From contig CM102283.1 of assembly GCA_046563655.1 (NCBI GenBank), forward strand, positions 9,858,001-9,922,000: 64,000 bases of DNA, in the 5' to 3' direction. Every line of letters begins with the position of its first letter. Position 1 is the stretch's first letter. The notes under the pieces are model-generated. The model had not been told where the DNA came from and made no database searches. It was given only the letters and a program-made list of their open reading frames with translations. Positions 20,937 through 42,989 of this stretch are shown here, piece by piece. This DNA is from Yuukianura sp. NJ FZ-2021. Taxonomy: Eukaryota. The translations under genes and the position numbers were made by a program.

Positions 20937-23900
20937 ATGTCGCCAACTGCACTCTTCCCACCATTTTTCAGGAGTATGGGCGCATGTTCTGAAGACAAAG
21001 GGCCCATGAACAACAACGCCTCCCCCTCTCCTGGACTGTCACAGTTGCCTTCGTCCTCCAACATCCTCCAAGGTCAAGGGCCCCCCACCACTCGCTCCTC
21101 AGTCGTAGGGACCCCCCAGTCTCAGACTTCGGGCATTTCCGCCCTCTCGGAACTCTCCGGAGAGAGAAGCATCTCGGGACTGATCGTGAGTGGGCATGGG
21201 ACGCTGCTCAGAGGGCAGCAGCATCATGGCCCCCCACCCAATCTCCTCCCCCAGTCTCAACACTACTTCAGACCCATCATCCCCCACCACCAAACCCACC
21301 ATCACCATCGCCCCTACCACCAAGGTCGTCATGACGACTTTGACCTCACTTCAGACTCAGATGCCAGCTCATCCATCATTGGCCCCCCTCCGCCCCTCCC
21401 CCTCTTGCCGGGATCCCTTGGCAGACCCCCCTCCGACCATCACTTGACTCCCAGACTCCCCTCCATCTACAACGGGGAACCACCACCTCCAATTCCATCG
21501 AATCCCCCCGGTTCAGGTGAGAAAAACTACATTTCAACATTTCTCTCCTGCAAACATGAAATTTAACAAAAATTTGCACTTTTCTTTCTCTACAAAAATG
21601 AAACAACTTTTTGAACAATTCCATTCTTACAAAAATGAAATTTTGTAGTACCGCAGTAAAATTTTACAGGTTTAGTACTAAACATTTTATTTATAAATTC
21701 TACAAACAAAAGGGAGAAAGTCTAAGTATTTTCAGTGGAATTGAATCCATTTGGCTGCAAAATGATTTTGAATTCCAACTTTCTCTCCTGGTTGTGTATT
21801 GAAAAAGTGGAGTTTAAATTGCGGAATGGAGAGCGTGTTTTTTGTAGGATTGAGAGCATTTATTTGGATGGAGAAAGTAAGAAATAAAGTTTCAATTGTG
21901 AGTGTGAGTATTGGGGAGAGAAAGTTAACTGGATTCAAAGTAGAGCAGAAGGGAGGAAGCACGTAGAAGACAGGAAATGCGACTGGAATTTGAGAAAAGA
22001 TGAAAAGGAGGTTTGAGCTGGCGGAGCGTCTTGCCTGAAGGTTGTGGAAATGGACCATTTTGGAGGCGAAATGGGGGCAGTGCTGGCGTTATTGTTGACG
22101 GGAAGTCGTACACTTTTGTGTTTCGTCTCTCTGGCACTATAAAGTGCATCCCATCCTGCGTCATTCCTCCTTCTTGGCTCCACCAGAACTAACGTCAAAC
22201 ACTTTCACTTTTGGAAAGGTCAAAGCATGAGCGGAAGTGGGGCAGAGAGCCTGGCACAATTAAGCTCCACATCCATTTCCACTCCTAAACTCTAATCTAA
22301 TTACCAGAGGCGCAAAACATATTTTCTTACATATTACATATTTTTATATTTTTAAAAAATATTTCTTGAAAAAAAAAATAGAAAAAGTATTTAGCAAAAT
22401 ATTCTAAGATTTTGCCAAAAAAGTGGCATTTTTGCAAATTTTATACTATTTGTCATGCACAAATCGTTTATCAAGGGTCCATGTAGTGTTGGGATAATTT
22501 TTCTTTATATAATTTTCAAAAATAGTCACAACATAGCCACAACATAGCCACAACATAGTCACAACATAGCCACAACATAGCCAGAACATAGCCAGAACAT
22601 AGCCACAACATAGTCACAACATAGCCAGAACATAGTCGCAACATAGCCAGAACATAGTCACACCATAGTCACAACATTGTCACAACATAGCCACAACCTA
22701 AATATTTCACTGATTTTTACTACATATTTCACCGGTTTTAACAACATATGTTTTGCGCCTCTGCTAATTACACAATTCACTCCCGAATCATCCCAAACAC
22801 AAAGAACTTACTAAATTTTGAAATTTCCACATCCACACGATTTCAAAAAATTTAAAATGAAATCAATAAATGAGAGACTGATTAGGGTGAAATTTGAGAG
22901 ATGCAGTCTGGCATGAAAGTTGTGCAGAAATGATGTTCCTAATTGCAAAGTCGATTTCTCAACTTTCAAATTTCCATCGCATCTCTCCTCATTTCCATTT
23001 TGATCTAACATGGAACAGAGTTATTAAAAATTCCAGACCATACTCATCGGTGGTTGTACTCTTTTTAATCAAAGTTTGTGTTAAAAAGCTAAGATGAAGT
23101 TACGTTTTTGTGTTAAAAAGGGAAGATTAAGTTAAGCTTTTGTGTTGAAAAGTGGAGAGTAAGTGAAGTTTTTGTGTTAAAAAGGATAAATTGAGTTGAG
23201 TTTTGGTTGTTTAGGGTGGATGTCTGGAATCTTCAGTCCGACTGGTCAGTCTACGGGAAGTGGTGCTCTTCGGTTCGACGACTCTTCTTTCCTGGGCACT
23301 TCTGATGCTTGCTCTTCCCCTGAAACCGGAAACAGTCTTCCGCGTACCACCAAGATCACAAAGAGAAAACGACCACCACGACCACCACCCAGGAGACTCA
23401 AGTCAGAAGACTTTACACTCCCAGAAGAAGATGATCGCAACATGGACGAAGAAGATGACGAAGATGATCCTCATTTACGCCACTTGATTGCCAGGTACAC
23501 CACTTTTCAAAACACTTTTTAAAACGCCTTCACCCATTTCCTCTCCCATTCTCCTAAAACTTTACTTTCTCTCTCTCCATTCACTTTTATGGTAACTAAC
23601 TATCATTACTTTCATTCACCTCTGGTTGATTTCACTCTTTTTTTTTTAAAACTATTCAACTTTACTTTTTTTTTCCTTCAAGCGCCAACATTCAAAATAT
23701 TTAAAATTCAAAATGCTTCAGTCAAAATGTTTAGACTTTTAAAGGCGCGTCTTTGAAAATATTTGAATTGGGCTTCTGATGCAAAAGGCACGTAGACTTC
23801 TAAAGTGACAACTGGAGAGAAGGGGCTCAGAAAACAACTTGTTCACAAATCCACTTGAACGGAGTGGTGATGATCAAGGGCCCTTCAAGTCCCTCACTAT

Positions 23901-26900
23901 TAATCAGCATTAACAACCCTATTTCTAAGATTTTTGAAAAGGAGCAAAAACTTTTATGAAATTGTCAAATTTGGAACCCATTTTTGGAAATTCCGAATTC
24001 CTGGCAAGGCGGAAGCAGCTAAAACGTCAATCCTAGTTTCTGAAAAGTCTAAACTTTTTTTTTCCACTCCAAAGTGTCAACAGACTGAAGTGACAGCCCC
24101 ACTCTTTTTTTTTGGATCGAATAAGTCAAGTGCATGTAGGGCAAGGTAGAAAGGAAACCTCACTTTTTATTTCAAAAGAATTTATGAAATGTGTCAAAAC
24201 CGTAACTCCCGTTGTACAAAAAAATTGGAACATTTTTTGAAAAGAAGAAATGAAAAGCTCTCTGGGGTGAAAAAATTGTTCGGTGGATTGACAATAATCA
24301 AGGAAGAGAGAAAGTGCGAAGAGATTTCGTTGAGTTTGATCGAAATTTTGTACAAGTCGGGAGGGATTTGGAGAAAGTCATTGGTGAGCGGCGTTTATTC
24401 CATTAGTTACTTCCTCCATCCTTTGTCCCCTCATCATCTCCAATTCTCTCTCCACAAAAAACGTAATCTGTCTTCGTATTGGACCAAGACGAAAGTCTGA
24501 CATTAACTGATTTATAACACTCACAAGAACCTGCTTCTCCTAAGCCGCAACGCTCAAAATGTCACTTTTTCCAATCGATAAATTTTGAAAAATTCTCCTT
24601 TTCAAAAAAATCGGGAAAAGGCTTTAAAAATTTAGTCGTTACATCATTTTACGCTTCCTCCAATTTTTCACAGTTAAGGCACCGCTTGTCTTGTAACCAA
24701 AGACAAATTTTATGGCAAAGAAGATTTTATAATTTTCATTTTCAAAGTTGCAGAATGTCTTTTTTTAAACAGAAAATCAAATCCCGAAACCAATCAGAAT
24801 ATTTTAACGTAGTGCTGCAAATTGTTGAGAGTTTTCCTGAATGGCCCTTTTTAATTCAAATTTTGTGCCTTTTTTGTTGATGTGTTTGAGTTGTTGGGGA
24901 AAAGCGTTGGCCGACACGGGTTTCCTCTTAGGCTTGGCGCCATTTTGTTATGCAAATGACATTTGGGGGAGCCATTGTGGATTTTGAGGAGGGTTTGCAT
25001 TAGAGAGTGGAATGTCTCTGGGGAGGAGGAGGAGGAGGAGGGAGGGAGTAAATGACTTGTCGTGAATCATTGTCCAGTGTCCATTAGCATACAATCAGAG
25101 ACTCTCTTTTGGAATTTGTCTTTGTCTGCCCTCCAGTCACCTTGGAGGGGAATGGGTGAAAGTGGGGAAAGGTAGAGAGTCGTTTGGAGGCGGAAATGAT
25201 GAGGATCGTTCTCTTTCCCAGCCACTTCTTCCGCTCCTGGGGATAGAAAGCCATTTGAAGCGGAGCTGGACGGAGGGCGCACTAAACAATGGCTACGCTT
25301 GTCTGCTTCTGACTGCTTTATTCAGGCGGGAAGCAAAGAAGATGGACCACAACTCCCTTCTGCCTCTGACTCACTTCTCCCAACGGTTCACGGTCCAGCA
25401 CAGTCCACGGCGTCGCAGTGGCACTTTCTTCTACTTTCAAAGGAAACCAGCCTTCAATTCTCAAATTTCTCCAAGAAATAAACAAAAGGCGAACAGTAAG
25501 CGCCGCACAAAAACGCACCCGAAGACGCCGGAATTCTGAATTAATTTGAGTCCAACCGCCGGAAGTTGATTAAAAGCTTAATTGATTTAAGCGTTGGGGA
25601 ACTATTGAGTTTTTGAGTTGGTCAAATGACGGGAGTGACCACTCTACCTTAGTCTAATCCTCGCTTAGTTTGGGTTTCTCTCGCTCTATTAATTCCAACA
25701 TTCCCGTTCTCTGGAAATGAAATTTTCTACTAAACATTGAAGTTAATCAGTTGAATGGAAACCTCAGTTGCAATAATTCATGCCACAGCACAAACCAAAC
25801 GTTGGACAACTTCTCCATTAACTCCAATTCAAAATCTCCCACACTTTGTCCGATAAGAACTTTCACGCTAAAGTTATGCCCATTCTTCCCTTCAACTTTC
25901 ACTTTCAACTCAACTTTACACATTTTTTTTCCAACCGCCGCTGAAAAAAAAAATCATAACGTATAGCTCCCAAATCTAAAGGACAGTTTTACTCTCATTC
26001 TGATTCTCATCATAAAGAAAACTTTCTCCAATTCTTTCGACTTTAAGGTTTTTAAAACTTTTTTTTTGACCTGTATGCAATACTGTTTGATTAAATCTTA
26101 AAAAGTAAAATAAGAGGCGGATTCTTTTTAAAACTTGACCACGCTTTTTAAAAGTAATTCTTTTAAAAGTTGTTTTTGAAAAGTTAAGCTGTAATGTAAG
26201 CTGGAACGGAAATGAGGTTTATGTCAGAGTTGGACTTTGGTCACCTAAAAGGTCACGACCTCTGCTTAATTCTGAGTTTTGTCACACACGCATGCCACAA
26301 AGACGATGATTGATTTGGTCATTTCGACTCCAATTTTAACAAAAGCGGAGGCATGTCGTGCGTAACCCAATTTGGACTTTATGAGAAAGTGAAAGAGAAA
26401 CGGCGGTTTGTGTGTCTTCTCGACTTAATAGTTATTGCATGTTTTCCTGTTCACAACTTCCTCTAAACAATTCATTAAACCCAGTCCACCAAATTTCAAA
26501 ATTTACTTTTTTTTTAATTTTCTAAATTTTCAAAATCAACGTCATGCTACCAAAGTCTTAATTTATTTTCAGAAACTCTCATGGAGGAGCGAGGATCGTG
26601 GACTACGGGTAAGAAAAATAAAGTTCTACTTTTCAAATTACGTGTTCTTAAAACTTTGAGGTAGAAAAGATCACTTTCAAAATAACTTTTTTTAAAAAGC
26701 GCTGGTTGTGTTTTGATTTTTGGAGGTCTTGGCCGCGTGACACGCCGTCGCCCGTGGCTTCTTCTGGCTACCAGCAAATGGCTGTAATGACGATGAGCAT
26801 GGGCGGGCGACTGGACGACATGCAAGCAGACGACGACAAGTCGCTGGACACTGCCATGGCACTCACGGAGATTCGGACGCAGTTGCAGGAACTGACCAAG

Positions 26901-29900
26901 AGTGTGGAGTCTTGTCAGAGCGAGGTGACACTTTTTACACACCCACATAACTTACCAAACCACTCCAAATTACTTTCCTACAAACTTTATCAAGCCCCAC
27001 CGCAGCCCCACGCTCCAAACTTTCTCCAAACCTTGTTTGGGTTCAGACTGAAATAACAAAAAAACCAAAGTCTTTCCTTACTTTTCATCTTTTGTGGGAA
27101 AACCAAGAAGAGTGAAACAAAAACACGATCTTTGCTCTTTCTACGTCAGCGTCTGCCGAGATAAGCTTATCCTCCAAGATAAAAAAAAGTTTGGATATGA
27201 GTTTTTGGTCGTAAGAGAAAGCTGTCACTGGAGCCCTGCCACTCTCAAGTCTCCTTTCTAACTTTCATCTCGTCGTCAACTGTTGAGAAATGACAATTTG
27301 ATTAATGAGACACGGCTACTTTGGAAAGTAGTTTTTTTGAGTGGCGTTTAGTTAAAGCAAAACACTTTCCATACTTGAGAACTTTTGGTTGTAAAGTTGT
27401 GTTTTGTTTGGGAATTTGCATATAGTGGTCCATAAATCTTGGTTTGGTTTTTGCACAGAGATGGCTGCTCTCCAGAATTTGCTAAAAAGGTAGAAAGTGT
27501 AGAGGGCTCTTCAAATTCAGAGCAGGGAAAGTTAGTGCCAAAATTGTGATAATTTATGGGGAGGATGGTTGTGCTTGGTGCAGCAGTTTGTCCTGGCCAA
27601 GAGCCATCAAAACCCTCTGTGTCTTTTAGTGAAAAAAAGAAAGTTGTTGTTAAAATTTGAAATGACTGGGCGGGAGTGTGTGCGTGGAGAGAGAAATAGA
27701 AGCCAAAAGTCATTTGGCCAAATGAAGGATGATTGTGGATTGAGAGTGCTCCAGGTCAAAGGTCATTCCGATCTCTGCCGTGTTTAGACAACAAGAGTTT
27801 GAGTTTTGTGGAATGATTGTAGAAGGACGTTAACTAGAAATTGGAAGTACTGAAATGACTTTGGGAAAAGACGAGCGAATGGCTGGAGGGAGAGATGCTC
27901 TGCGCAATGGGTTTTATGGTCGCACCGAACCGTAAAATCTACGACTTTAATTTTATGTAATGTTATCCCTCTCTAATTTCCTCCATCTCCACTTGTCCAA
28001 AGTTGCACTTTTTAGCGTCAACTTCCAAATAAAAACGTTAAAATTTAAACTTGGAGTCGGTTTGTGTTTTAACACGTTGGATGATGCTGCCAGTGGCTGC
28101 CTCATAATTTCCTTTACGACTTTTGTTCCTGTGTTGGCGGGAGGTGAATTTTATGAGACTGATTCGGAAGCCTTTTACGTTGTCAACTCAAATCTCGTGG
28201 AGTCATGACTTAGCCGGGGATTACGCCGTCTCCACAGCACCATCCTCCGACTTCTGCAAAATATCACCAACAGATCCCTCCAAATCTATTTATATTGACA
28301 GATCCACGGCGACGACGTCGCCTAAGTCCCAGCTTCTCGAAATGTCGCCTCTTATTTTCTCTTTTCCAAATACTCAAAGTACCGTGAACACCCCTCCAGG
28401 TGACTCCGGGCACAAACCACTCACAAATATTCCACTTTTCCATTCCAATCCCATTCCTCTTTTATCCCATTTTTCACTTTGAGGCATTAGGAAACTAGTT
28501 TTTAGTTTATGAAATTCTGGAGGAGAAGGAATTTAGAAATTTTAAATTTGACATAGTTCGGAGTGAGGAGGAGGAGGATGTTAAAGTGGAGTGACGGTGA
28601 CCTGGAGGGAAGTTGACGTTTCCTTTGGAACGGAGAGTGTCGCTGTCTGTCCACATTACTCGGAGGAAGAGGTGACATTGAAAGGAGTGCTTATGAGGAA
28701 GTGGAGGGAGGACAATGTGATAATGTTTTCGCATTCACTCCCTCCTCCTCCTCCTCCTTGGAGGAAGTTAGCAGAGTGCCTATGAGAAAGCTACAAATGT
28801 CCTCTGCAATTTCCGTAGCATCTTAGTCTGTCTCTTTCTATTCTCCGTTGTTCGCTGGAGAAAGGCCATGAAAAAGGACAAGGCCTTCATGCACTTATAG
28901 TTACTCCCTCCACTTCCACCAACAATTTACATGCTAATTCACCATTCTTCAAAATTCAAATTCACCAAATCCAAGGGGGAAATTAACTCTGACCCTCACT
29001 TGACCTTTACGATGAAACTTGGAATAAATTTTGAAATGTTGATAATTTTGGATAAGTGTGAAATGTTAAAGTTGTGCTGTTGCTAGGTGACTGATGTGCG
29101 GAGAGACATGCGCTCAATGCAGAACAAAGTGGACATGGTGCATCACCACGTCAAAGATGAGCTGGACGATATGCGAGAGTGCGTAGATCGACTGGACGAG
29201 CAGTCGAGACGCAGGAAGAAAAGACTGCTGGAACAGGTACTTTATACTTTCTAAAAAAAATAACACTTTTTAAAAATACTCTTTTCAAAATCTAAACATT
29301 TTGAAAAGTAGTTGCAGTAAACGGTGGAAGAAGAGATTTTTATGTGGAGTGTTGGAGAAAGTTGGTGAAAGTGAAGCACCAACATTTAAGTATTATTTGT
29401 TACTGCACAAGAAAAAAGTAATATTTCCAACGGCGTCTTTTTTATGGCTCAATATTTTACGTTTCATTTGTTTGGTTGTGACATTCCAGGCACAAAAGTA
29501 CAACTTAACTTCCCGTTTATTTCAAAAGGCTACTTGAATCCACTTTCACTTTAATCTTTTAATACTATTTAATCCCTTTCTATATATTTGAATATATTTT
29601 TAACCGAAATAGTTTTTAATTTTGTACATTTTGTAACTTGACCTTTGACTTTTGTGAAACGAGTGTTTTTGGATCCCATGTGAATCCAGTGGGATTTCGA
29701 ACTGGAAGTTGAACCGAATTTTCTCCTGTTTTTCTTTCTCTCTGGAAAGTTTCGTATTAGCTCCACTTGAGACGCAGGCAGGAGAAGTTAATTGAGCTTG
29801 AACAGAAACGTGGGTGGGAACTTGGATCATTTGAGACGAGTGGATATTCCATATTCCAACTTTCAAAAAAAAAATTTTAAAAAGCAACACTCCAAGTTCA

Positions 29901-32900
29901 ACTTTTCCCTCTGCTGTAATATTGTCGCCTAGATTCCAAGAAATTTTAACAACTTTCATTTCCCCCTGCTGCGTTGAGCTCATTTGAGGACTTTTCAGAA
30001 AGTCTCTCTTCATCCGTCGTCCTTCTCTTTTTCCGTTTTTAAATTTTCATACTAAAAAACTAAAAGACTTTTTTGAATTTTGGAAAGAAGTTGAAGAGGA
30101 AAGAAGTTTGTTGGGAAGAAATAAAAAGTTTCTCCACTTTTTTGTAAGAATGGTTAGTTAGGCGGCAAGATTTAAAGGTTTCTCTTTCTACAGGGCCTGA
30201 CGCTGTTCCTGTCGTTTGCCATCTTTGCTGCCGTCTTGGGAATGCTTCAGTTTGGCTACAATACGGGCGTAATTAATGCCCCCAAACAGGTAACTTCCAC
30301 ACTCAAACTTTGTCCATCAACTTTTACTCTCAACTTCATCACGCCCTTTCCTCAAAAACACTATTAAAAAACACACTTTAAAAAGTGAGTGTGTAAACCC
30401 ATCTATTTTTCTACAAAACTTCAAACTACCAAACGAGCCCTGGGCTAAAAATCTTTTTGGTTTAATTTCATGTTCAGTTTATGCTCAAACCGCAAACCAA
30501 AAGAAGTTTAATTTAGTTTTTAAGGTTAGTGGTTAATCGTCTGACCAAGGAACCATATTGTTAGAATTTCCATGTTGAAGTGGGCACTAAACCTCCTTTT
30601 AAGTCTGATTTGTGATTGAGGAGTGACAGGGAGAATGCAGAGTGAAAGTTGGAGCATAAAGCACGTAGTGCGTATCAGATCTCATCAGAACCACTTTGGC
30701 CTAACCCACCCACCTTTAACTTTCTCCCGCCAAAACTAATGTCTCGAGGCAACCGAAAAGCACTAGAAAGAGCCGGTTAAATATGGATGATAGCTTTCCC
30801 TTTATGCCTTCCCGCCTCTTCTTTAACACAAAAGAAACCAACTAGAACTTAACCGAAAGTTAACGTGAAGGAAGTTGAGGAGACTCAAGTAGGAAATAAA
30901 TACAATTAAGAGGAACAATTACGCTCTCTCTCTCTTGTTACGGGAGAGAAAGTATTAAAATGAATGGGACAAATATGATGACCCGCTTTAAATTATCCCG
31001 CCAAAACCAACTCAGGTGGGTCAACCAATGCACATTACGTTAAGCCATCTTCATACAAAGTCTCGAGCAAACTAAATCCTGGAACTTTCTCCAGAGATGA
31101 AAGTTTTGGCAGGAGTTGTGAATTTGATGAGGCCGAGACGCGGCGGTTGATTTGAAATTGTTGGCAAGAGAGGTCGAACTTTGACCTTTGTGCGGAGGCC
31201 AACAAAAGTTTTATGGGTCACGTCTCTTGCGAGTATCTTTTGCCGCCCATTTCAAATGGCCTCAAATTTGTACACTTCCATTCCATCCAGCACACGCAGA
31301 CAGCCAAAAGAGCAGCACAACGAACATGACTTGATCAGAGAGGCGGAACAATTTTTTCAAAAATATTTTTTTTAGTTCACGTTAAATGGGATTTGAAATG
31401 AGACAATTGAACAAAGTCCCTCGGTCTGTCTGCTTCTGCGCAGATCTTTGCCTGATCTGTGTCGTTAGTGATCATAACTGAGGAGGATGAGAGTCAATCA
31501 GTCAGTTTTGGGCGGGAAGCCAACTTTCAAAAATTTCAAACTGCACTCCTTACATTGAACGTCATTTAAAATTCTTTGTCTTACCCTGCCTCAACGTAGT
31601 CGTATTAATTAGAGATGCAAAGGAGGAAAGTGTGAATTTCCGGAACATTATTTTCCCGGGAGGGTAAAGTTTTTGATTGAGGAAAGACGAGGAGGGAAAT
31701 TCAAAAAGTGAGAAGGACTCTCATTTATTACCTCCACAAAACTAAAAGTTCGCAGAGAGACCTCATTTTTATTCATGGAGCGAAACAGGACTTTCTCCTT
31801 CCGCTTTCCCCTGATTTGTCAAATACTCCACCTTCTTCCCGCTTCCGCTCTTACCAAACTCTAACCAGCCTTTGGAATTACAAAAATCACTCCCTCCGTC
31901 AAAAACTTAAAACAAAATTTAAATAAATTTGGTCTAAAGTTAGACTTTCCTCTTCTTTGTTCGGTTTCTGCTCAAAAGTTGTGCAGAACGTTAAAGTGCG
32001 TAGGAACGACTCTGCTTCAGTCCAAACTTAGCCATGTCTTTTTTCATTTTCGGGAGAAAAGAGAAAGTTCTCTGCGGGCATTTGGAAGTAGTTGGGTCGT
32101 GGACTAGAAAAAAAAGAGAAAGTGGTGGTGCAGCACACAAAATAAGTTTATAGGCTTTTTCATGAAAAAAGAAGGAGGCTAAGAGAAAAATAGACCGAGA
32201 ACCCCGGATGATTCAATCACCCCGAATTTCCATCCAATCCAAACTTCCCTCCGAGTACAAAAAAGCAGACTTAAGAAATTGGCCAACTTTCTTCTTCTTC
32301 CAAAGCATGCGCCTAACAAAAACAATTTTATTTTCTATGGAGCGGAGCCATTTTAGTACAAGGACGAACAACTTTCTTCTGCTCCAAGGAAAGCCAAGAG
32401 CAACCTACGCTTTGTAGCTTATTTTGGATGTTTCAAAAGTTTCAAAAATCTGATCCAATAAAAAATAAAATGTTTTGAACATTTTTCTATTTTATTCAAA
32501 ATGGGCACAAAGTGTCCCTCTTTACTTTCAAATTTTGAAATTTCCAAGTGCGTCTTCTGTTCTCCAACGTGCATTTTATTTCCACTTGCCTCAAATCCTC
32601 AAGTATTTTCTTATTATTCTAAAGGTTTTCTGAAACTTTTTCAAAATGTGCCTATCTTGTTGGCTTGTGGAGATGGAAAAAGTGATACTGCAGGATCAAA
32701 TCCAACCTCCGTTTAAAGCTTAAAGGATTTGAGTTCTCCCGCATTTTTGTTCCACTTTTTAGAATATTTCTGGATCGTATCGACGCACAAAGTTGGACAA
32801 AGCCTATCTCCTCGGAACAACTTTTTTCAAAGTTTGAACTTGGCGGGTTTGGCTGAGGGCGGATGATGACATTTTGTAATATTAATGTTGCCACTTTATT

Positions 32901-35900
32901 ATTTTGGATTGTGGGCTGTTCGTTTGTGGCGGGAATGCAGGAGGGATGAAGTGGAAATGTATGTTTTGGTCCAATTGTCTTCTACTTTCTCTTTCCATAA
33001 TCTTCACTCACTCTCAATTTGAGTTCCATCCATTTTCCCTCTGTGTCCATAACCATAAGAAGTATTAGCATATGCACCAACCTCATTTCCACTTTCCATT
33101 AAACTTTACGCCCAGTCTCCAGGGACGACTTTCCAACTTTCACTTTTGCACAAACACAACACATTTCCATCAAAGGAGGTCAGAGGTCACTGACCTCTCG
33201 AATCTCTGGCGCTACAGTCACAGTTTGCCCGAATTGAGACAAAACAAGTAAAGTTGGGGCTACTTTGGAAATGCAACAACGACAAATTAGGAAGATTGAA
33301 TCTTGCGGAACTCAAATCTCCCGGGACACGAGAGTTTAGTTCTAAGACTAACTCTGCACAATGAATTATTACTCAACTCTGACCTTAACTTTCTATTTTG
33401 TTTTACTTTCTTTCTTGTTTTTAGGAAATTGAGGCTTTCATGCTAGAAATTCACAAAGGGAGGCTTTTGGCGACACCAACACAAGCCAAAGGAGCGACGA
33501 CAAAGGAGGAGACAGCAGATGAGAAACTAGACGTTGAGTTTTTGTACTCCATTGTTGTGTCAATATTTCAAGTGGGTGGGATGCTGGGTGGCTTCAGTGG
33601 TGGCATCATCGCAAACCGTTTCGGAAGGTGAAAAAACTTTTTAAAACAAGACAATTTTAAAAAGTGTTAGTTTTAAAAAAAGAATTTAATGAGTTTTGAA
33701 TTGTGGTTTCAGGAAAGGGGGACTTTTGCTCAACAATTTGCTGGGGATTTGTGGTGGATGTCTGATGTGGATGACAATGGCATCCAATGCCTATGAAATG
33801 TTGATTATTGGTCGATTTATTATTGGAGTTCACTGCGGTAAGCCACTTCAACTCTCAAAACTTATTGCCTAACCTGTTAAAGAAAAAACTATTTTCTTGT
33901 TTACGAACCTTGCCTCTCACTTTCTCTCTTAATTCCAAGACTTAAGTTGTGAAGTGTTGGTGTGAGGGATTAGAGTGTCATAAATCAAAAGTTGAAAAGT
34001 GTTGTTTGTAAGATACTATTAACAAGGTTAGTTTTGAGCAAGTTGAAGAGTTTAATGTCATGTCATGTCAAGAGAGAAACGGAGCGAGAGGAACGGGAGA
34101 GGCTATAAAGTTGGAGATGGATTTTAGACGTTTGGAAGCGAGAGGAGGGAAACCGCCTTTCATGTTCGGTGGAGTGTGAGTTGGATCTGAGCATTAGCAA
34201 GAAGTTACAAACTTTCTTTTCTGATTTGAATTCAGAACAAAGTGCACCGCCGTCTCACTTTGTGCACAAAGAATTAAGCCCACTTTCTCCAACTTTAGGA
34301 AATGGCATGACAGCACGCACGCAACTCCCTTTCCAGTAATAAGCTCCGTTCCTCTTGTCTAATCATACTTTCCGCACTAACCCCCACTCATTTTTTACAC
34401 AAAACGAGATTATTTTTTGAAAAAGTTGCAACATGAGTCATGATTTGTGTTCAGAACAAAAGTTGTACAATGGTGGACCTCGTAAAGGTAAAGTACATTG
34501 GGTCCTGCGCGGGAGTGGGCGGTCAGAACAAAGTTTTTTGTGACTTTGAAGGAAAGTTTGTTGCGCCAAAAGTGCAGTGAAAAGTTTTGGGGCGCGATAG
34601 GTTTGAGTTAATATTTTGAAAATGGGTGTTTGTTTTCTGTTTTTGCAGGCGTAAATACAATCCTGGTGCCGATGTACGTGTCGGAAATTGCTCCATTAAA
34701 TCTCCGGGGTATGACAATTCCAAAAATTTCAAACACGGAAACACCATTTTTGAATTTCCCGCCAAATTTGAACTTTTTGTAGGTGCTCTGGGAACTGTGA
34801 ATCAATTAGCTGTGACTGTAGGACTCTTAGTTTCTCAAATCCTGGGAATTAATCAACTCCTGGGCACTAAAGAAGGATGGCCACTCCTCCTAGGTTCGCA
34901 CTCTTTAGAATGACCTTTGACCTCTGAGTGACCTTTGACCTTTGCGTAGGTCTGACTGTGGTTCCAGCGGTGCTGCAATTGCTGTTATTACCAATGTGCC
35001 CTGAGTCTCCCAGATACTTGTTAATTACTCGGCAGAGAGAGGATGAAGCCAGAAGAGGTGAGCTTAAGCGGGTTACGGGGAAACTTTGAGAGAAAGCTTC
35101 TTTATAACTTTAATTATGAGCAAGATTTAAAAGTTTTCAACAAAAGCCGAGATTAAAACCAACACTAAAACCAAACCTTTATGATTCCGCTTTCTTACTC
35201 ACTCAAAATCCCAACTCAAATTTATCTTCCCCCACTTTCTCTGAGGAGATTTCCATGAAAACTTTAGTAGAATTGTATTGACAACTTTTAATATTTTTCT
35301 TGGAAAAATGAGTAACTGAAATTTTGAAATTTTTAAATTTAGCACTGCGTAAGTTCCGAGCTTGTCAGCATGTAGAAGAGGACGTGGACGAGATGCGAGC
35401 GGAGATCCGAGCTCAGCAGTCGGAGACTTCTATTTCGATGCTGCAACTGCTGCTGTCGCCCTCTCTGCGCATGCCCCTCTGTATTGCCATTGTGATGCAA
35501 CTGTCGCAGCAACTCTCAGGAATCAACGCTGTGAGTCTTAACTTCTGAATCCTAATGAACACACTTTCATATCCTCCAGTCCATGACTTTAGTTGAGAGT
35601 GACATTGAGGCATGTTAATGCTAATCCACCCTCCCAACTAATTCACAGCCTCTATTTGCACAACCACTTTCTCCACACTCTCTGTCAATATTTGGACTCT
35701 CACACAATCTGTCAAGGATCCACACTTTTTCAATTTCCCCCATCCCTACCAAACCTCATTCCTCAAACAACATTTTACAAATCACAAAGTCATTCACTTT
35801 ACACTTTTCTGTGAAAGCACGCAGTGAAAAACCGCAGAGGAAAGTTTCATCTGTTGGCTCAAACTTCTTTTCAACTGTGACAAAATCAGACATTTCTTTT

Positions 35901-38571
35901 GGAAGTTTAGTTTTATTTTGAGTAGATACATTCCCATTTCCAATCTATGTAGTGAAAGTAGTAAAGAGAAGGGAGCAATGTGTAATATGAAAACAAGGAA
36001 ATCAGTACCATCGGAAAAAAGTGAAAGCGGGAGGGAGACTACTGTGCTCTTCCAGTCACTTGGTGATTGATGATCTCCAGGCCAAAGAACCTCAAAGGCC
36101 TCAACCACTTTTCTATATTCCTTTCTACTTTTTTTGAAAATGGCACCTCCTGAAAAATAGAACTATTGTCATGGACTCCCTTCAGCACAATACTCTCCCA
36201 AATCCAATCTTCACACTTGACTTTTGACACTCATTTCTCGTGGGAGTTTGATGGATTTGTTAATTCGTAGGTGCTCAACTACTCGACTGATTTCTTCATG
36301 GAGTTGGCTGGACTGGGGCAGGACCAGGCCAAGTTTGCGTCGATGGGAGTGGGAGCCATCATGGTCGGCATGACACTCATCTCCATCATGCTCATGGACA
36401 GAGCGGGCAGGCGCAGTCTGCATCTCTACGGCCTCGGAGGCATGTTCGTCTTCTCACTCTTCATCACCATAGCAATGCTCATCAAGGTAACACACAGTTC
36501 AAAAAACTCACAACAAACTACAAAAATAGGTGATTTGTGATGCAAAAACCTCGTGGGGTTTTGGCTTTTTAAATCAGAGAAAGTCAAAGAAAAAGCGGAA
36601 GTTTATAGACTTGGTTCCTGAAATGTTGACTTTGATGTTTTGTGCTAATGGAGTGCGGGTTACATTAAAAATGTGTGGAACTTAAAACTCCCTCGACACA
36701 AGATGAGACAGTGAGTGATGATGAAAGGAGGTTTTCGCACTTTGTGTTGTGGAATGAGAATCAGTGATGATCTATGATTATGCTAATGCAGTCAACAACC
36801 TCCATTCTCAGAGAAAGTACAGCGTGTTTGGGAGAAAGCAGGGACTGTTTGAGCATAAATCCACAACTTCCATTTTGGTTGAAGATGAAATATAGAATGT
36901 CGACGGGGGTCAAAACCAAAATGGAGTTTGGAAGTCTCTCTGCATGCTGTCTTGTGTTGGGCAGAGATGAGTTTGTGTGGTCACTCGGATGGAACCAAAA
37001 CATTTGTCAACTGTCCCACTTTCTGGACTCAAAAAAAGAGAAAGTCTTAATTACTTTGTCTTCTCCACATGCGTCTCCTTTTGATTTATTTCTCAAACTT
37101 ATGAATTCTGCTCCTCCTCTCAAACACTTTGTCTTCACACGAGTCATGTCCACTTTCTTTTCCAAAATGTTTTTATTAAAAAGTGTTGTTAAAAAGTGTT
37201 TTTGTGGATTGTAGGAGTTTTTCTCGTTGTTCAAGGAGATCCTTGACTGGATCTCGTACTTGGCAGTCATCTTCACCCTGTGCTTCGTCGTGTTCTTTGC
37301 GGTGGGTCCAGGGTCCATCCCTTGGATGATCACTGCTGAGCTGTTCACGCAGGGACCAAGGGCCGCTGCCATGGCCATGGCCAACCTCGTCAACTCATTC
37401 TCAAGTCTCCTCGTCTCCATCTCATTCCTCTGGATGAAGGTAACTTAACTTTAATTAACTTCATTTTAACTTAGTTTTAACTTCAATTTAACTTCAATTT
37501 AGGCTCACATGGGGAGCTACGTATTCCTGCCATTCAGTGTCCTGCTAGCCATCTTCTGGACTTTCACCTACAGAAAAGTACCAGAAACAAAAAACAAAAC
37601 ATTTGAAGAAATATCTGCACTCTTCAAACGAAATGGCGCCAGGTATGCTTTCTCTCAAGAATTTCAAAAGTTCAAAATTTTGAAAATGTTGCTTTCTTTT
37701 TTTGAAGGTCACCTGATGATGATGATGCTCATATATACGGGTGAGTAGAACACGGAAAATTCAAAATTCAAAATTTTGAAACTGTTTTTGGTAGGATGTT
37801 GAATTGTAACAATTCGATGGGTGGCGGTGGATCTCTGCCTCAAGAAAGTTCGGCCTTGATAGAAGAGCGGGACAAGCAGCAACCGACTCAAGAAATCTTA
37901 TGTGAGGAAGAGTATGATTACAACCATCTCTAACATTTACTTTCTCTTTTGAGTGGATCTGCTAAAGAGTGCATTTTAAGCATCTTGGCTGCTTCTTCAT
38001 CTTCAGACATCCTCAGTTGGCCTATCATACTTTTATGTCTGTGCCTTTAACTCCCAAAACTTGGGAAATTTACTACAACCTACGCAAGAATTTTGGCTTC
38101 TTCAACTAAACTTTCTCTCCTCTGACAAGACAAAGGCTAATGACATATTTTGCATTCTTCTATACTTTTAACCTGCTTTTTAATTCTAAGGAACCAAACA
38201 ACTAAGGATGCTTTTAAACACTAAGCTTCCAACTCTAAAAATGACAACTCAAAAGACACTTTTCTAAAAATAAAAAGTAGAATTCGTAGATTTTTAAATT
38301 CTTAATAAGTTTGTGCCTTGCGCATGGATTTCTTAATTTTGCACTCTAGCACTCTAGCACGTCCTCGCATGAGCATGGTTTTTGCTTTTTTGAATTAAAA
38401 ATTAAAACTAAAACTAACTTTAAATATTTCTGTTGTAAACACAAAGCTTCCGGAAGGTCGTCCCCTCCGTGTGACCCTTCAAGTCCCCCCGGGGCAAATG
38501 GCCCCCCGCCCCCCGTGCCCTTCGCCATTCCTCCCTACCCACCGCGGTTCCTGGACGACAACGCCGTTTGA
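20937..38571 (+). CDS. Glut1: Facilitated glucose transporter (MFS sugar porter, class I GLUT; orthologue of insect Glut1), long N-terminal isoform
   Basis: Frame-consistent exons: 20937..21516, 23215..23494, 26573..26608, 26726..26924, 29087..29236, 30194..30289, 33425..33627, 33713..33837, 34649..34708, 34783..34893, 34950..35057, 35343..35530, 36271..36486, 37215..37439, 37503..37642, 37708..37740, then either 37795..37933 (stop) or 37795..37901 + 38447..38571. Hallmark motifs: [72 protein letters not shown]. Confidence 0.95.
22305..22763. mobile_element. hAT-type MITE (459 bp) carrying an internal minisatellite, in a Glut1 intron
   Basis: Perfect 18-bp TIR cagaggcgcaaaacatat (22305-22322 and 22746-22763). 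8-bp TSD ctaattac at 22297-22304 and 22764-22771. Confidence 0.9.
22522..22697. repeat. 11-bp minisatellite (atag[c/t]ca[c/g]aac), ~16 copies
   Basis: Head-to-tail units read directly from the sequence; no spacers. Confidence 0.95.
23075..23200. repeat. Degenerate ~32-bp tandem repeat (core tttgtgttaaaaag), 4 copies, just upstream of a Glut1 acceptor
   Basis: The core recurs four times at about 32-bp spacing. Confidence 0.65.
33177..33196. promoter_or_regulatory. Composite nuclear-receptor element: perfect DR1 overlapping a perfect IR1 (EcR/USP-type palindrome)
   Basis: AGGTCAgAGGTCAcTGACCT in the Glut1 intron before the exon at 33425. Function is inferred only. Confidence 0.5.
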
Positions 38572-40282
38572 CGGTGGGCGGTGCAACCCGACTCCTCGCA
38601 GTCCCCCCCTTGGTCGCCCCCCTCCAGCAGCCTCCCTTCACTGCTCTAAACAGGAGTCGCGTGTCTGCAATTTCAAAACACTTTCACAAAAATACTTTCT
38701 CCTCAATTACAAAGTATGTTCAACTTTAAAGAAGCTGAATCACTGCCCTTCAACAAGCCCGACTGAAAGAAGCAAGAATAATCTCAACTTCTTCAACTAT
38801 AGAAAATCAACCACTCCATAAACAAGATACTTTTTCAAACTCGTGATTTGACCAAATTTGAATCAATTCAACAAGTCCAATTTCAAAAAAGCTCATTCAT
38901 CTACACTTTTGTGTCACAATTTCAGAAAGGAACAATTTCAAAAACTTAGTGTTTGTGAAAGTGCATCATACAACGATTTGCCAAAGAAAAAAATGCTCCT
39001 GGAAAATAAATTTTTGAACCCAGCAGCAACTCGAAGAAAACGCAGAATTCCGAAATTCAGTTTTGAGGCAAAGGTAGGACTTAGAAAGAAGAAAAACGAA
39101 GAAATAATTAAAATTAGTTAATTTAAACTATTAATTAACGAGTGATGAATTGCAGCTGAGCTGCACAAGTCCTAAAAAGCATGAAATTGAGATGAAAGGT
39201 AAAAGTTAGTGGACGGTGCTCAAGTTGTTTTTACTAATTTAATTATTGAATTGATAATCGTAGATAATTTAGTCCAAAATAAAACATTTTATATGTAACT
39301 TGTGTGTGTAGTTACTAGGAGTCTACTTAGGATTTTACAGGTTTGTTGGATGTGGTAAGGCAAGTACTTACTCTAACACACGAAACAAACACTTTTCTAA
39401 CTTAGAAACATCAATCCTCCTCCACCTTTCACCTTTTCTTCATTTCACTTTTCAACAAACAGTGTTAGAACTAACTCACAAACAAGTTAAGTAATAATAT
39501 CTGCTCAAAATTTAAGAGACGGAGGATCTAAAAACCTGATTTGTGTTAAAATCATTTTTACAGTTAATCGGTTACTCTAATTAAGAATGTCCTAATTTTA
39601 ACACTTGTTTAAAATTTTGAAACTGATGAGATTAATCATAAACTAAACTAAACATTCGGCCTCAAAACAATTGAGTCAACTAATAACTGTAACTTTTGAG
39701 TTTGAAAGTGTAATTCTCAAAGTCAGCACTCAATCTACTTGATTCCAAATTTTGTCTAAATTTGACAAGACCAATGAAGACAACAAATCCACCAACAACG
39801 TTTCGTCTCACAACTAAAAAGTGAAGGAAGAACAACACGATTTCTACAACAAACCCAAAACTAAAAACTAAATTATTTCTGTATGTTAACATTCTTATTT
39901 TACTAAAACTACCAACATAAGTTCACTTTTCCTTGGAAATCAATATGCGAAAAAATCAACTCAAATCAAAACTCTGGTTAAATTGTCACGATTCCATACC
40001 AGTCCTTTTTTTTTGTTTTAGCATTACTTTTTCTAGAAAAAAAAAACCTAAAATGTTCTTTTTTTGTCATTTTCTAAGAATTTTTGTTAGGCGTAGCGAA
40101 GAGTCGATGAAAGTTGTAAACTTAGCGGCCACTCTTAGTCCTTAGCCCCCTTGACAGAATCACATGCTCACACAGCCACTCTTAAGTTGAGTTTAAAAAC
40201 AATAAAGCACACTGTCGAACTTTAGTTAATCAACTTCCTTGAGTTGATTGCGATTCGAAGTAAGTGAAGGAAGTTGAATTAG

Positions 40283-42989
40283 TTACTGTGTAGAAGTGGT
40301 CGTGGTAAAAATTGACTTGACGACGGGAGGAGGCGGAATTGCGGCAGCAGAGTCGACGATGGGCCACTTTGTTGGACTGTCCACTGGCCTCGCCCATGCG
40401 CAGTTGTCGGCTTCTTTGATTTCAATCAGTTCAGAGGCCTTAATTGCATTGAGTACAACGGAGTAGTCTTGTGTCATTGATTGGATCCGGAAGAACGAAG
40501 AAATTAAACTAATCGGGATGTAGCCCTCTCCGTCCATCTTCCGCCGCAAGTAAAAGTCTCGATCCAAGTTCTCCTCGCTAAAATAGTATTCGCTGAAACA
40601 CAAAGGAATTAAATTAATTGCAATTCTTAATTACTTTTTAAAATAGTGTTATTACATTTGTTTCTGGATGAGTTGGCTTAGTACGGCGTCGTCAATGGGT
40701 ATGGGTGCATATGCGTATGCTTGAGCATCAGGAGGAGGAGAGTAAGTGGCAAAGGTGGTGTAGGGCATAACGAATTCAGTCAGCGGGGGGAAGAGGGGGT
40801 TCATGCTCCCAAATTCCGGTGGGTACTCGTACCCTTCTCCAGTCTCTTCTGGAACTTGTGATGGGTCACTCGTCTCCTTGTAGAATTTGTAGTAACCATG
40901 GCGATGCTTCCCTTTGTGGCCATTTCTACCATTTCGAAGTGCCCCACCTCTGTTGCTACGCGGAAGTCCTTCTGTGGGAGTTGCACTCTCACTACTGTTA
41001 TGATCTGTCGTAAAATTACTATCATCAAACAAATCTTTCCACAGAGGTCAATAGCTTTTTATAGACTTTTATAGCTTTTTAACACAAACGACTTGATTTT
41101 ACTCACCGCCGGCCGGAGGACCGCCGTTGTTGTGCTGACTGATGGTTGGTCGCTGCTGCTCAAACTTGTCTCTGATTCTTTTCTTGGGTTTGGGCGGTTG
41201 CTTCGGAGGTTCGTCTTCCAGGATGAGCGGAACCCACTTCTGTTTGGAAGCTAAGAACATGAATAAGTTAGGAACGTGAATGATTCAGAAGGTGAGGGCA
41301 TAATGTCATGTTGTGAGACTCACATTTCTTGTTTTTCTTCTTCTTCTTCAAGTCTCCAGATGCAGCGTCCCCTTCTCCAGTTTCTTCGTTTCCTGCCGCA
41401 TCACTCGACATCCCATCTCCACTCCCATGTCTTGATTGTCTCTTCTCCTCAACTGGTTGGTCATGGCCCTTCCCAACTCCATTTGACACCAAAGGCAGTG
41501 GCCACTTTTCATCACTCAGCTCCGGTGGTCCCGTTATTCTCTGCAAATAAAAATGACCTTGAAACTACTTTAAAAAAAACATTGGAGTGTGAAACATACG
41601 AGTATTTCCTCGTTGCCAGAGTCAGTGGCTGATTCGGAAGGTGTTTGCGATGTAAAGCTCAAGGTATTGACTTCGGCTGGACGAACTGTGGGCTTAACAG
41701 CGTCGTCCAGAGAAGGCCACATATCCACCGTCGCTCCAACTTTCCCCTTTGTCGTTCCAGCCACCACAGAACTTGAACTTTGCCCTGGAAAACAGAAAAG
41801 ATTAAAGTTAAATTCATCAAAATACTTATCATTCCTTTTTACACACATTTAGATTAGTAAGTGCACGAAGGTCTCAAGAAGTCAAGTTCTCGTACTTGAC
41901 CTTGGAACTCGCAAATTCTACGCTTTTCACTAAAGACTAAACTATTCCCTTGGAGACAATTCTAAAAGTCACCTTTTAGCTAGTAGACTAGACGCTATCC
42001 AAGTAAATTGATAACGCAAAGAAAAATTGGCAACTCCTAGATAAGACGCGTAAACATAACAAAAGTGTGCAAAAATCTCAACTAGGGAAAGGAATGGTTT
42101 TCCTATATTAAAGTTCAAATGAATCGTGTGGAGATTTACCTGGAGCTGAAGTTTGAGCAATGTCAGATTTTGTGTGTGGACCGGAAATAGCGGCTGCTCG
42201 AATCTTCCAGACTGAAGGGGGCGGTGGGGGGACGAAGGACTCTGTCTGAGGTCGTGGAGGATTCTGACTCTGGTCATCCTGCTCTTGAGGTTTAGCGTTT
42301 TGAGGCACCGAATTCGTCTTTCCACTAATAGTCTTCACTGGGGTGTCTTCCTCGCTACCATTACAAGCTGAGGCAACGAGGGAGATGGCCAATGGCTTCA
42401 TATCAAAAGTACTGACTGGTGAACTGCATGGATCTCCGTTTCCTGTAATTCCAAAAAATGAAGTTAAACTTATGTTACAAGTATTAAAACAGTTTTGAAT
42501 TTGACCTGGACTTGGAGGAACTTGTATTTTGAGTGGTTTTTCTCCAGCGGCGATGCGAGCCCAAGCCATGACTGGCGGTGAGGGTGTGGTGAGTGGCGGT
42601 TGTGGCTTTGGTAGGACTGATTCAGTAGTCTGAGTCTCTTCTGGTCGTGAGTCCGAGTCCTTCGGAAGTTCTTCTGGAATGCTTGATGCAGAACTGTTAC
42701 TGTTAGTCCCACTACTTCCACTGTGTGGTGGTCCATACTGCCGATGATAGTGTCTCCCATTCCCATTCCCGTAACCATGGTAGCCCCCATATCCATTGTT
42801 GTGTCGTCGATTAGTCTGTCGATTCTGTTGTTGCTGTTGAAGGTGCATGAGTCTGACTGTGCGCTTGCTCACAACCGTCTGGAATCCGTCATCATCTTCC
42901 TCTACTTCCGCTTCATGCTGCGGAGGTTGAAGGTCAGGCAGTTCAGCGTTTCTGGCTCCTCCTTCCGTGACAACCTTTGAGCTCGTCAT
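40283..42989 (-). CDS. larp: La-related protein, Larp1-like (La motif; no DM15 domain found)
   Basis: Exons complement(42506..42989, 42140..42442, 41600..41784, 41324..41540, 41107..41250, 40656..41034, 40283..40592), all GT-AG and frame-consistent. La motif [47 protein letters not shown]. Larp1-type KQKWVPL and DxWPSL motifs. Confidence 0.88.

What the first reader, a model, noticed from the sequence alone, without database searches (positions are those of the whole stretch)
38569..38665. Stop-codon readthrough candidate at the end of Glut1: UGA-CGG plus downstream stem
Seen: the distal exon stops at TGA (38569-38571) followed by CGG. GC-rich, coding-like sequence continues in frame for 25 codons (RWAVQPDSSQSPPWSPPSSSLPSLL) to TAA at 38647-38649, and the composition turns AT-rich only after that. 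cgactcct (38589-38596) can pair with aggagtcg (38652-38659). Established: UGA-C is the leakiest stop context, and UGA-CGG with a 3' stem drives alphavirus readthrough. I recall Drosophila Glut1 being annotated with readthrough, which needs verification. Readthrough would mask the terminal DNAV motif.
Basis: partly seen in the sequence, partly recalled or inferred. Interest (0 to 1): 0.7.

Follow-up and report, generated by a model that had tools for sequence, protein, structure and literature searches.

The report
Ancient leaky stop in springtail Glut1
The glucose-transporter gene Glut1 of a probable springtail ends at the same leak-prone stop codon that fruit flies are known to read through and that termites and ants follow with a conserved hidden peptide, so this animal probably also makes a minor longer form, here with a short tail of its own.

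Summary
Observation confirmed. The gene is a Glut1 orthologue, probably from a springtail. Other springtails end at the same residue (RFLDDNAV), so the UGA is old. It is the positional homologue of the Drosophila Glut1 stop, which FlyBase and a 2026 atlas list as readthrough. In 11 of 11 metagenome loci (termite-like and ant-like, two lineages) the stop is UGA-CAA, followed by a 52-81-residue peptide conserved as protein. Bee- and beetle-like gene calls carry the same peptide. In the springtail, the 75 nt after the stop are the most GC-rich of 190 coding-like ends tested (GC3 0.84). A hairpin starts 10-17 nt after the stop and ends where GC drops. Limits: the 25-residue tail matches the insect peptide only in its first two codons, its coding score is not frame-specific, no springtail relative's downstream DNA or RNA reads were obtained, the hairpin is absent in termite and ant, and alternative splice acceptors exist. 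Readthrough here about 0.7; stem as driver about 0.35. New member of a known kind. The scan noted other readthrough candidates elsewhere in this genome.

The parts
30194..37642 (+). Ten exons encoding the Glut1 (sugar porter, SLC2A-like) transmembrane core
   Evidence: GT-AG exon model translates without a stop; Pfam Sugar_tr on 3 exons; best hits Orchesella and Folsomia Glut1
37708..37740 (+). 33-nt in-frame cassette micro-exon
   Evidence: AG/GT borders; similar to the optional segment of Folsomia and Allacma proteins
37795..37901 (+). Penultimate exon (MLNC exon), phase-1 donor at 37902
   Evidence: same junction in Folsomia P0005 against P0125
38447..38568 (+). Last coding exon, proline-rich, ends RFLDDNAV; weak AAG acceptor at 38444-38446
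   Evidence: 84% identical to the Folsomia tail; same end in Allacma and unnamed springtail-like proteins; phase-1 acceptor also in termite and ant loci
38569..38578 (+). First stop and context TGA-CGG-TGG-G (termite TGA-CAA-TGG-G, ant TGA-CAA-CGG-G, fly TGA-CTG-AGG)
   Evidence: TGA-C-R-R-TGGG follows 5 of 36,029 TGA triplets in 864 kb (pattern chosen after seeing the data)
38572..38646 (+). 25-codon candidate readthrough extension, Ser/Pro-rich, ends SLL
   Evidence: GC 0.72, GC3 0.84 against 0.79 in two core exons; Markov score +4.4 bits in frame 0, +0.2 and +4.8 in the others
38647..38649 (+). Second stop TAA (followed by A)
38582..38602 (+). 5' arm of predicted hairpin: core 38589-38596, inner helix 38598-38602, context-dependent basal pairs 38582-38588
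38640..38669 (+). 3' arm of predicted hairpin: inner 38640-38644, core 38652-38659, basal 38661-38669; its end coincides with the GC change point
39005..39010 (+). First AATAAA after the stop, likely poly(A) signal
   Evidence: function inferred

Best explanation
This is an inherited, programmed stop-codon readthrough site at the end of hexapod Glut1. Most ribosomes stop at UGA and release the transporter ending in DNAV. A minority decode the UGA-C with a near-cognate tRNA (Trp, Cys or Arg by established knowledge; not shown here), translate 25 more codons and stop at UAA-A. The longer form buries the normal end and adds a disordered Ser/Pro tail ending in SLL, which could change binding partners, phosphorylation or trafficking. 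The 3' hairpin may raise the rate. Shown: position, age and context of the stop, readthrough in the fly, protein-like conservation after the stop in other insects. Inferred: readthrough in this species. Speculative: role of the hairpin (about 0.35) and function of the tail.
For: Same terminal residue in Folsomia, Allacma and two unnamed springtail-like clusters. Fly orthologue: UGA, 778-aa extension in FlyBase; tier 1, score 15, reads spanning the stop. The fly stop ends the same last exon. 11 of 11 loci found with a pattern ending before the stop have TGA-CAA. Termite against ant extension: BLOSUM score 98, z 18.9, 0 of 2000 shuffles; the other two forward frames z 1.1 and 1.4; 27 of 52 residues identical, 17 of them by synonymous codons; identity by codon position 0.58, 0.75, 0.37. 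9 of 16 fetched profile hits read through the old end into QWE. Springtail keeps TGA-C and Trp at codon 2; only 13 of 189 background ends are TGA-C. Highest post-stop GC of 190 ends. +4 C, +9 G and high GC3 are features of top-tier fly readthrough genes (PMC13278127 section 7).
Against: No DNA after the stop from any other springtail (searches found none), so frame conservation is untested. The springtail tail does not match the insect profile: rank 1581 of 23,082 scored, 2943 of 48,850; no match in the genome to the termite peptide. Coding score equal in frame +2; 10 of 189 background ends are as open and as coding-like. The GC-rich stretch runs 20 nt past TAA and can be explained by the hairpin alone. 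The hairpin is absent in termite and ant (z -1.2, +0.2). Within termites 4 of 5 variable sense codons change the residue. The 129-nt fly window was not enriched in a pooled reporter screen (FDR 0.70 and 0.12). The 11 loci stand for two lineages only. AG acceptors lie after the stop.
Confidence: 0.7

Rival explanations
1. Relic: readthrough is real in insects but lost, or only basal leakage, in this springtail. The GC-rich 98 nt are a 3' UTR hairpin (stability or localisation element) and the 25 open codons are incidental.
For: GC drop coincides with the hairpin end at 38669, not with TAA; 47 of 189 ends have 25 open codons; no homology to the insect peptide; coding score not frame-specific.
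Against: UGA-C and the Trp codon are kept; GC3 0.84 fits this gene's codon use; fly readthrough regions also diverge beyond recognition between clades (PMC5100048 passages).
Confidence: 0.18
2. Alternative 3' splice sites: the region after the stop is coding because some mRNAs skip the stop by splicing to an AG behind it (38601, 38627 or 38630), giving another C-terminus without readthrough.
For: Pyrimidine-rich AG at 38601; AG at 38627 and 38630 are phase 2, like the donors at 37643 and 37741, and would join the last 6-7 codons in frame. Frame +2 scores +4.8. Two dipteran NCBI models join the upstream exon to the fly-type extension. Termite and ant also have an AG after the stop (by eye).
Against: 0 of 180 annotated Glut1 tails hold the insect extension (a partial sample of isoforms). 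The insect peptide is conserved from the first codon after the stop, ahead of any AG, with stop-to-core distance 34-45 codons always in frame (biased towards in-frame cases). Fly reads span the stop.
Confidence: 0.08
3. Recoding of the UGA itself: A-to-I editing to a Trp codon inside a double-stranded region, or selenocysteine insertion.
For: In one fold the UGA is paired; in termites the UGA lies in a predicted hairpin.
Against: No SECIS or other Rfam family at gathering score in 37600-39400 (2 weak hits, E 2.9 and 4.9); the pairing partners differ between lineages.
Confidence: 0.04

Closest known systems
Drosophila melanogaster Glut1-PP/PQ (FBgn0264574, FBtr0345689) readthrough isoform
   Same: Orthologous gene, same terminal exon, UGA followed by C, G at +9, GC-rich coding-like sequence after the stop.
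   Different: Fly extension is 778 aa and has no counterpart in the window; context UGA-CUG against UGA-CGG; fly end PSSGP against DDNAV; fly case rests on comparative and ribosome-profiling data, this one on inference.
Termite-, ant-, bee- and beetle-like Glut1 extension found here (QWET...KAC...L[RQ][HN]SL)
   Same: Same stop position, UGA-C, Trp codon at position 2 in most (Arg in the ant loci).
   Different: 52-81 aa, hydrophobic and probably helical; no detectable similarity to the springtail tail after codon 2; no comparable hairpin.
Alphavirus and tobravirus UGA-CGG or UGA-CUA plus 3' stem readthrough signal (PMC3159437)
   Same: UGA-CGG; a stem with arms far apart, starting near the ribosome's mRNA entry.
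   Different: Spacer 8-9 nt and 10-12 bp with covariation there; here 17 nt for the robust 8 bp, 10 nt only with context-dependent basal pairs; no covariation data; cellular gene.
Abundant conserved readthrough genes of Drosophila, Anopheles and Bombus (PMC5100048, PMC13278127, PMC7826183)
   Same: UGA-C, GC-rich extension with high GC3, disordered tail, fast divergence of the extension.
   Different: Those catalogues rest on whole-genome alignments of insects; the passages read name no springtail; depth across hexapods is not what they tested.

Membership tests
Conserved (programmed) stop-codon readthrough genes of Pancrustacea | First stop conserved in position among orthologues | tested here: met
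   56 of 183 held Glut1-like proteins end at this position; springtails RFLDDNAV
Conserved (programmed) stop-codon readthrough genes of Pancrustacea | Leaky context (UGA-C) kept in orthologues | tested here: met
   Window, 11 of 11 insect loci and 3 Drosophila species; other springtails' codons not seen
Conserved (programmed) stop-codon readthrough genes of Pancrustacea | Protein-coding evolutionary signature after the stop, in insect orthologues | tested here: met
   Termite against ant, frame 0 only; profile hits
Conserved (programmed) stop-codon readthrough genes of Pancrustacea | Protein-coding evolutionary signature after the stop, in the springtail lineage itself | not testable with these tools
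   No springtail DNA found; single-genome scores mixed
Conserved (programmed) stop-codon readthrough genes of Pancrustacea | Not explained by alternative splicing or editing | tested here: inconclusive
   0 of 180 annotated tails hold the insect extension, but acceptors exist and no RNA reads were laid
Conserved (programmed) stop-codon readthrough genes of Pancrustacea | Ribosome footprints or peptides beyond the stop | not testable with these tools
   Published for the fly orthologue only
Alphavirus-type UGA-CGG/CUA plus 3' stem signal | UGA followed by CGG or CUA | tested here: met
Alphavirus-type UGA-CGG/CUA plus 3' stem signal | Stem of 10 bp or more after a 7-9 nt spacer | tested here: inconclusive
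   8 bp after 17 nt; 15 bp with bulges after 10 nt, basal pair probabilities 0.15-0.87 by context
Alphavirus-type UGA-CGG/CUA plus 3' stem signal | Stem conserved with compensatory changes | tested here: not met
   No equivalent stem in termite or ant; springtail relatives not available
Insect Glut1 extension family found here | Similarity to the QWET...KAC profile | tested here: not met
Selenoprotein (UGA as Sec) | SECIS element in the 3' UTR | tested here: not met
   Rfam scan of 37600-39400

The most novel reading that the evidence does not exclude
Readthrough at the Glut1 stop predates the split of springtails and insects and has been kept ever since, while the appended tail was replaced at least twice (778 aa in flies, 52-81 aa in termites, bees, ants and beetles, 25 aa here). 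What selection keeps would then be the leaky stop and the masking of the normal C-terminus, not the tail sequence; in springtails a lineage-specific, alphavirus-like hairpin may set the rate and the tail would end in a new PDZ-type ligand.
Probability: 0.5. Interest if true: 0.62.

Novelty: new member of a known kind. Interest (0 to 1): 0.47.

Why it matters
Readthrough extensions in flies are mostly restricted to Diptera (82 of 87 in a 2026 preprint). One stop that stays leaky from springtails to flies while its tail turns over would be a clean test of whether readthrough is kept for the tail or for hiding the normal C-terminus of a transporter. The conserved 52-81-residue extension in termite-, ant-, bee- and beetle-like sequences is missing from the 180 annotated Glut1 tails held here, so annotations of a central sugar transporter may be incomplete. 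The mechanism itself is known and the fly orthologue is already annotated.

Tried and rejected
Sequencing runs: no RNA holder was listed, so no reads were laid. Springtail DNA: pattern scans found 0 loci in metagenomes (the pattern was too strict for one JGI springtail-like protein seen later, P0204), 0 in viral contigs and 1 unrelated bacterial match in genomes; 3 viral matches were chance. By-eye resemblances rejected after profile tests: GVAC after the second stop against insect GKAC (double readthrough), LLAVP in frame +2 against termite, LPxLL at residues 21-25 against ant (z -0.7 to 1.2). The anchored score (58 of 2500 background stops as high) comes from the first two residues. A PDS motif and a GACTC/GAGTC pair shared with D. 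melanogaster were seen by eye; D. willistoni and the intermediate insects lack them, so taken as chance; not tested. Donor 37912, which would end the protein at 38472, is not the junction used in Folsomia or Allacma proteins. Recent nonsense mutation or sequencing error: rejected, relatives end at the same residue. No homologue of the fly extension in the window. PDB, ESM Atlas (best 0.77) and Pfam gave nothing for the extensions or the last exon. Literature: searches showed no paper on Glut1 readthrough outside Drosophila or on springtail readthrough (listings only). Jungreis 2011 (PMC3227100) was not held. Glut1 was not found by name in supplements of PMC5100048 (one file unreadable) or PMC3840789. 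The bumblebee candidate table S21 (PMC7826183) lists accessions and was cut when stored, so bee Glut1 may already be listed there. bioRxiv supplements of 10.64898/2026.07.13.738141 were not seen.
Full report
Observation. The 241-nt region is single-copy at this sensitivity in a 98.7-Mb genome.

The gene. Ten GT-AG exons from 30194 to 37642 give an uninterrupted sugar-porter core. The best protein matches are Orchesella and Folsomia Glut1, with Allacma also listed, so the animal is most likely a springtail (inference). Two donors could feed the last exon. The last exon is 84% identical to the Folsomia tail. Folsomia RefSeq, Allacma and two unnamed springtail-like clusters end in RFLDDNAV. Termite, locust, beetle and hymenopteran isoforms end in PPRFPNS[AG]V, and dipteran ones in VCQN[NT]GP, at the end of the same exon; 56 of 183 held Glut1-like proteins end there. 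The stop is therefore old, not a recent nonsense change.

The fly orthologue. FlyBase lists Glut1-PP/PQ as UGA readthrough with 778 extra residues (PMC4528330, one supplement row). A 2026 atlas ranks it tier 1, score 15, with reads spanning the stop (PMC13278127, supplement rows). The fly stop follows VCPSSGP in D. melanogaster and CLPNSGP in D. willistoni, then UGA-CUG. That matches the dipteran and hymenopteran ends above, so it is the positional homologue (inference from peptide likeness; the alignment used Hermetia and Anopheles, not Drosophila). In that paper's pooled screen the 129-nt fly window was not enriched (FDR 0.70 and 0.12; my reading of table T9).

Other insects. A DNA pattern that ended before the stop found 11 metagenome loci: 8 termite-like and 3 ant-like. 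Upstream Glut1 exons confirm the termite loci; the ant loci match by the last exon. All 11 have TGA-CAA, then 52-53 or 81 open codons; they reduce to 6 plus 1 distinct sequences from two lineages. Termite and ant extensions align in frame 0 only among forward frames (score 98, z 18.9; other frames z 1.1 and 1.4; reverse frames z 3.5-5.6). Of 52 aligned codons, 27 keep the residue, 17 of these by a synonymous change, with identity 0.58, 0.75 and 0.37 by codon position (protein-guided alignment). The second stop in termites varies between TGA and TAA at one place, and one locus has a 3-nt deletion. Against this, 4 of 5 variable sense codons among five termite sequences change the residue. A profile search of 1.84 billion proteins gave 22 hits. 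I fetched 16 and left out 6 multi-stretch hits. Nine read from the annotated end through W into QWET or QWEG; four start inside the extension; one is a Vespula model; one is partial; one is unrelated. The W is best read as a UGA decoded by an automatic gene caller with code 4; this is confirmed by DNA only for the termite case. Named cluster members are bees and a wasp. None of 180 annotated Glut1 tails holds this peptide.

The springtail extension. It shares TGA-C and a Trp codon at position 2 with the insects (TGA-CGG-TGG-G against TGA-CAA-TGG-G). That 10-nt pattern occurs at 5 of 36,029 TGA triplets in 864 kb, but I chose it after seeing the data. Beyond codon 2 there is no detectable homology in any frame. 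As background I used 190 ORF ends that look coding up to their stop, picked by a Markov model trained on long ORFs; some are internal exons, not gene ends. The Glut1 end has the highest GC after the stop (0.72; median 0.37; 0 of 189 as high). Thirteen of 189 are TGA-C, 47 have 25 open codons, 10 are open and score as high, and 1 of those is TGA-C. GC3 is 0.84, close to 0.79 in two core exons. The Markov score is +4.4 bits in frame 0 but +4.8 in frame +2, so it does not pick the frame.

The hairpin. The 8-bp stem has pair probabilities of at least 0.92 and an inner 5-bp helix; 42 of 1000 shuffles have a stem as long. Folded from the stop, the region is ordinary (z +0.10). Without the first 9 nt, which a ribosome at the stop would cover, it folds at z -3.5, rank 5 of 189 in the same window (window chosen among nine). 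The stem can extend to 38582/38669, a 10-nt spacer, but these basal pairs vary from 0.15 to 0.87 with context. The best GC change point is 38669, the end of that arm. Alphavirus signals have an 8-9 nt spacer and 10-12 bp with covariation (PMC3159437, passages). Termite and ant show no such stem. [quoted passage not shown]

Mechanism. Most likely a minority of ribosomes insert an amino acid at UGA-C, add 25 residues and stop at UAA-A (0.7). The normal end is then internal. Springtail DNAV has Asn at -2, whereas insect NSAV and NSGV fit the class I PDZ consensus; the extension's SLL end also fits it and contains a Ser-x-x-x-Leu-Leu stretch like a sorting signal (both consensus motifs recalled, untested). 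Rivals are a non-coding hairpin in a lineage that lost readthrough (0.18), splicing to an AG behind the stop (0.08) and editing or selenocysteine (0.04).

What is new. The mechanism and the fly case are known. I found no paper on Glut1 readthrough outside Drosophila or on springtail readthrough (listings only), but the bumblebee table S21 lists accessions and was cut (PMC7826183, passages and supplement search), so the bee case may be catalogued. A preprint finds 82 of 87 fly extensions detectable only in Diptera (10.64898/2026.07.13.738141, section 9). A stop that is leaky from springtail to fly with three unrelated tails would be an unusually deep case. Earlier notes of this scan report many other readthrough candidates in this genome; they are unchecked and not counted as evidence.

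Verdict. Real feature, new member of a known kind. Strong for insects, probable but untested for the springtail. Interest 0.47.

Noticed in passing
window 37902-37933 +: Reading on past the donor gives [10 protein letters not shown] then a stop; Folsomia P0125 has [10 protein letters not shown] at the same place. Likely a conserved intron-retained or intronic-poly(A) isoform with a third C-terminus.
   Followed up: partly
window 37708-37740 +: 33-nt cassette micro-exon similar to an optional segment in Folsomia, Allacma and insect Glut1.
   Followed up: partly
P0202, P0207 (Folsomia-like Logan gene calls, 28 contigs): They end RFLDDNGSSHE while RefSeq Folsomia ends RFLDDNAV. An intron inside the last codons of F. 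candida would explain it; DNA not seen.
   Followed up: no
window 21006-21512, 23229-23492, 26727-26930, 29075-29251 +: Exons matching the long N-terminal extension of Folsomia Glut1 isoform X1.
   Followed up: no
window 40283-40630 -: La-domain exon (Pfam La) of a convergent La-related gene; its 3' end lies near the Glut1 3' UTR.
   Followed up: no
L002:560-677 - (and other termite-like loci): The UGA itself opens a predicted 12-bp hairpin in termites; overall fold not better than shuffles (z -0.5 to -0.8, one locus +0.2).
   Followed up: partly
L020 near 6475 + and L074 near 7256 -: Two background ends with stop-C context, 39 and 49 open codons and frame-0 coding scores of 10.7 and 7.5: possible further readthrough sites or internal exons.
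   Followed up: no
G000:C1:6248124-6248342 +: A second sugar-porter paralogue, 45% identical to exon 37215-37439.
   Followed up: no
P0230: Unnamed protein with the insect extension core behind a longer, divergent last exon; may be another insect lineage.
   Followed up: no
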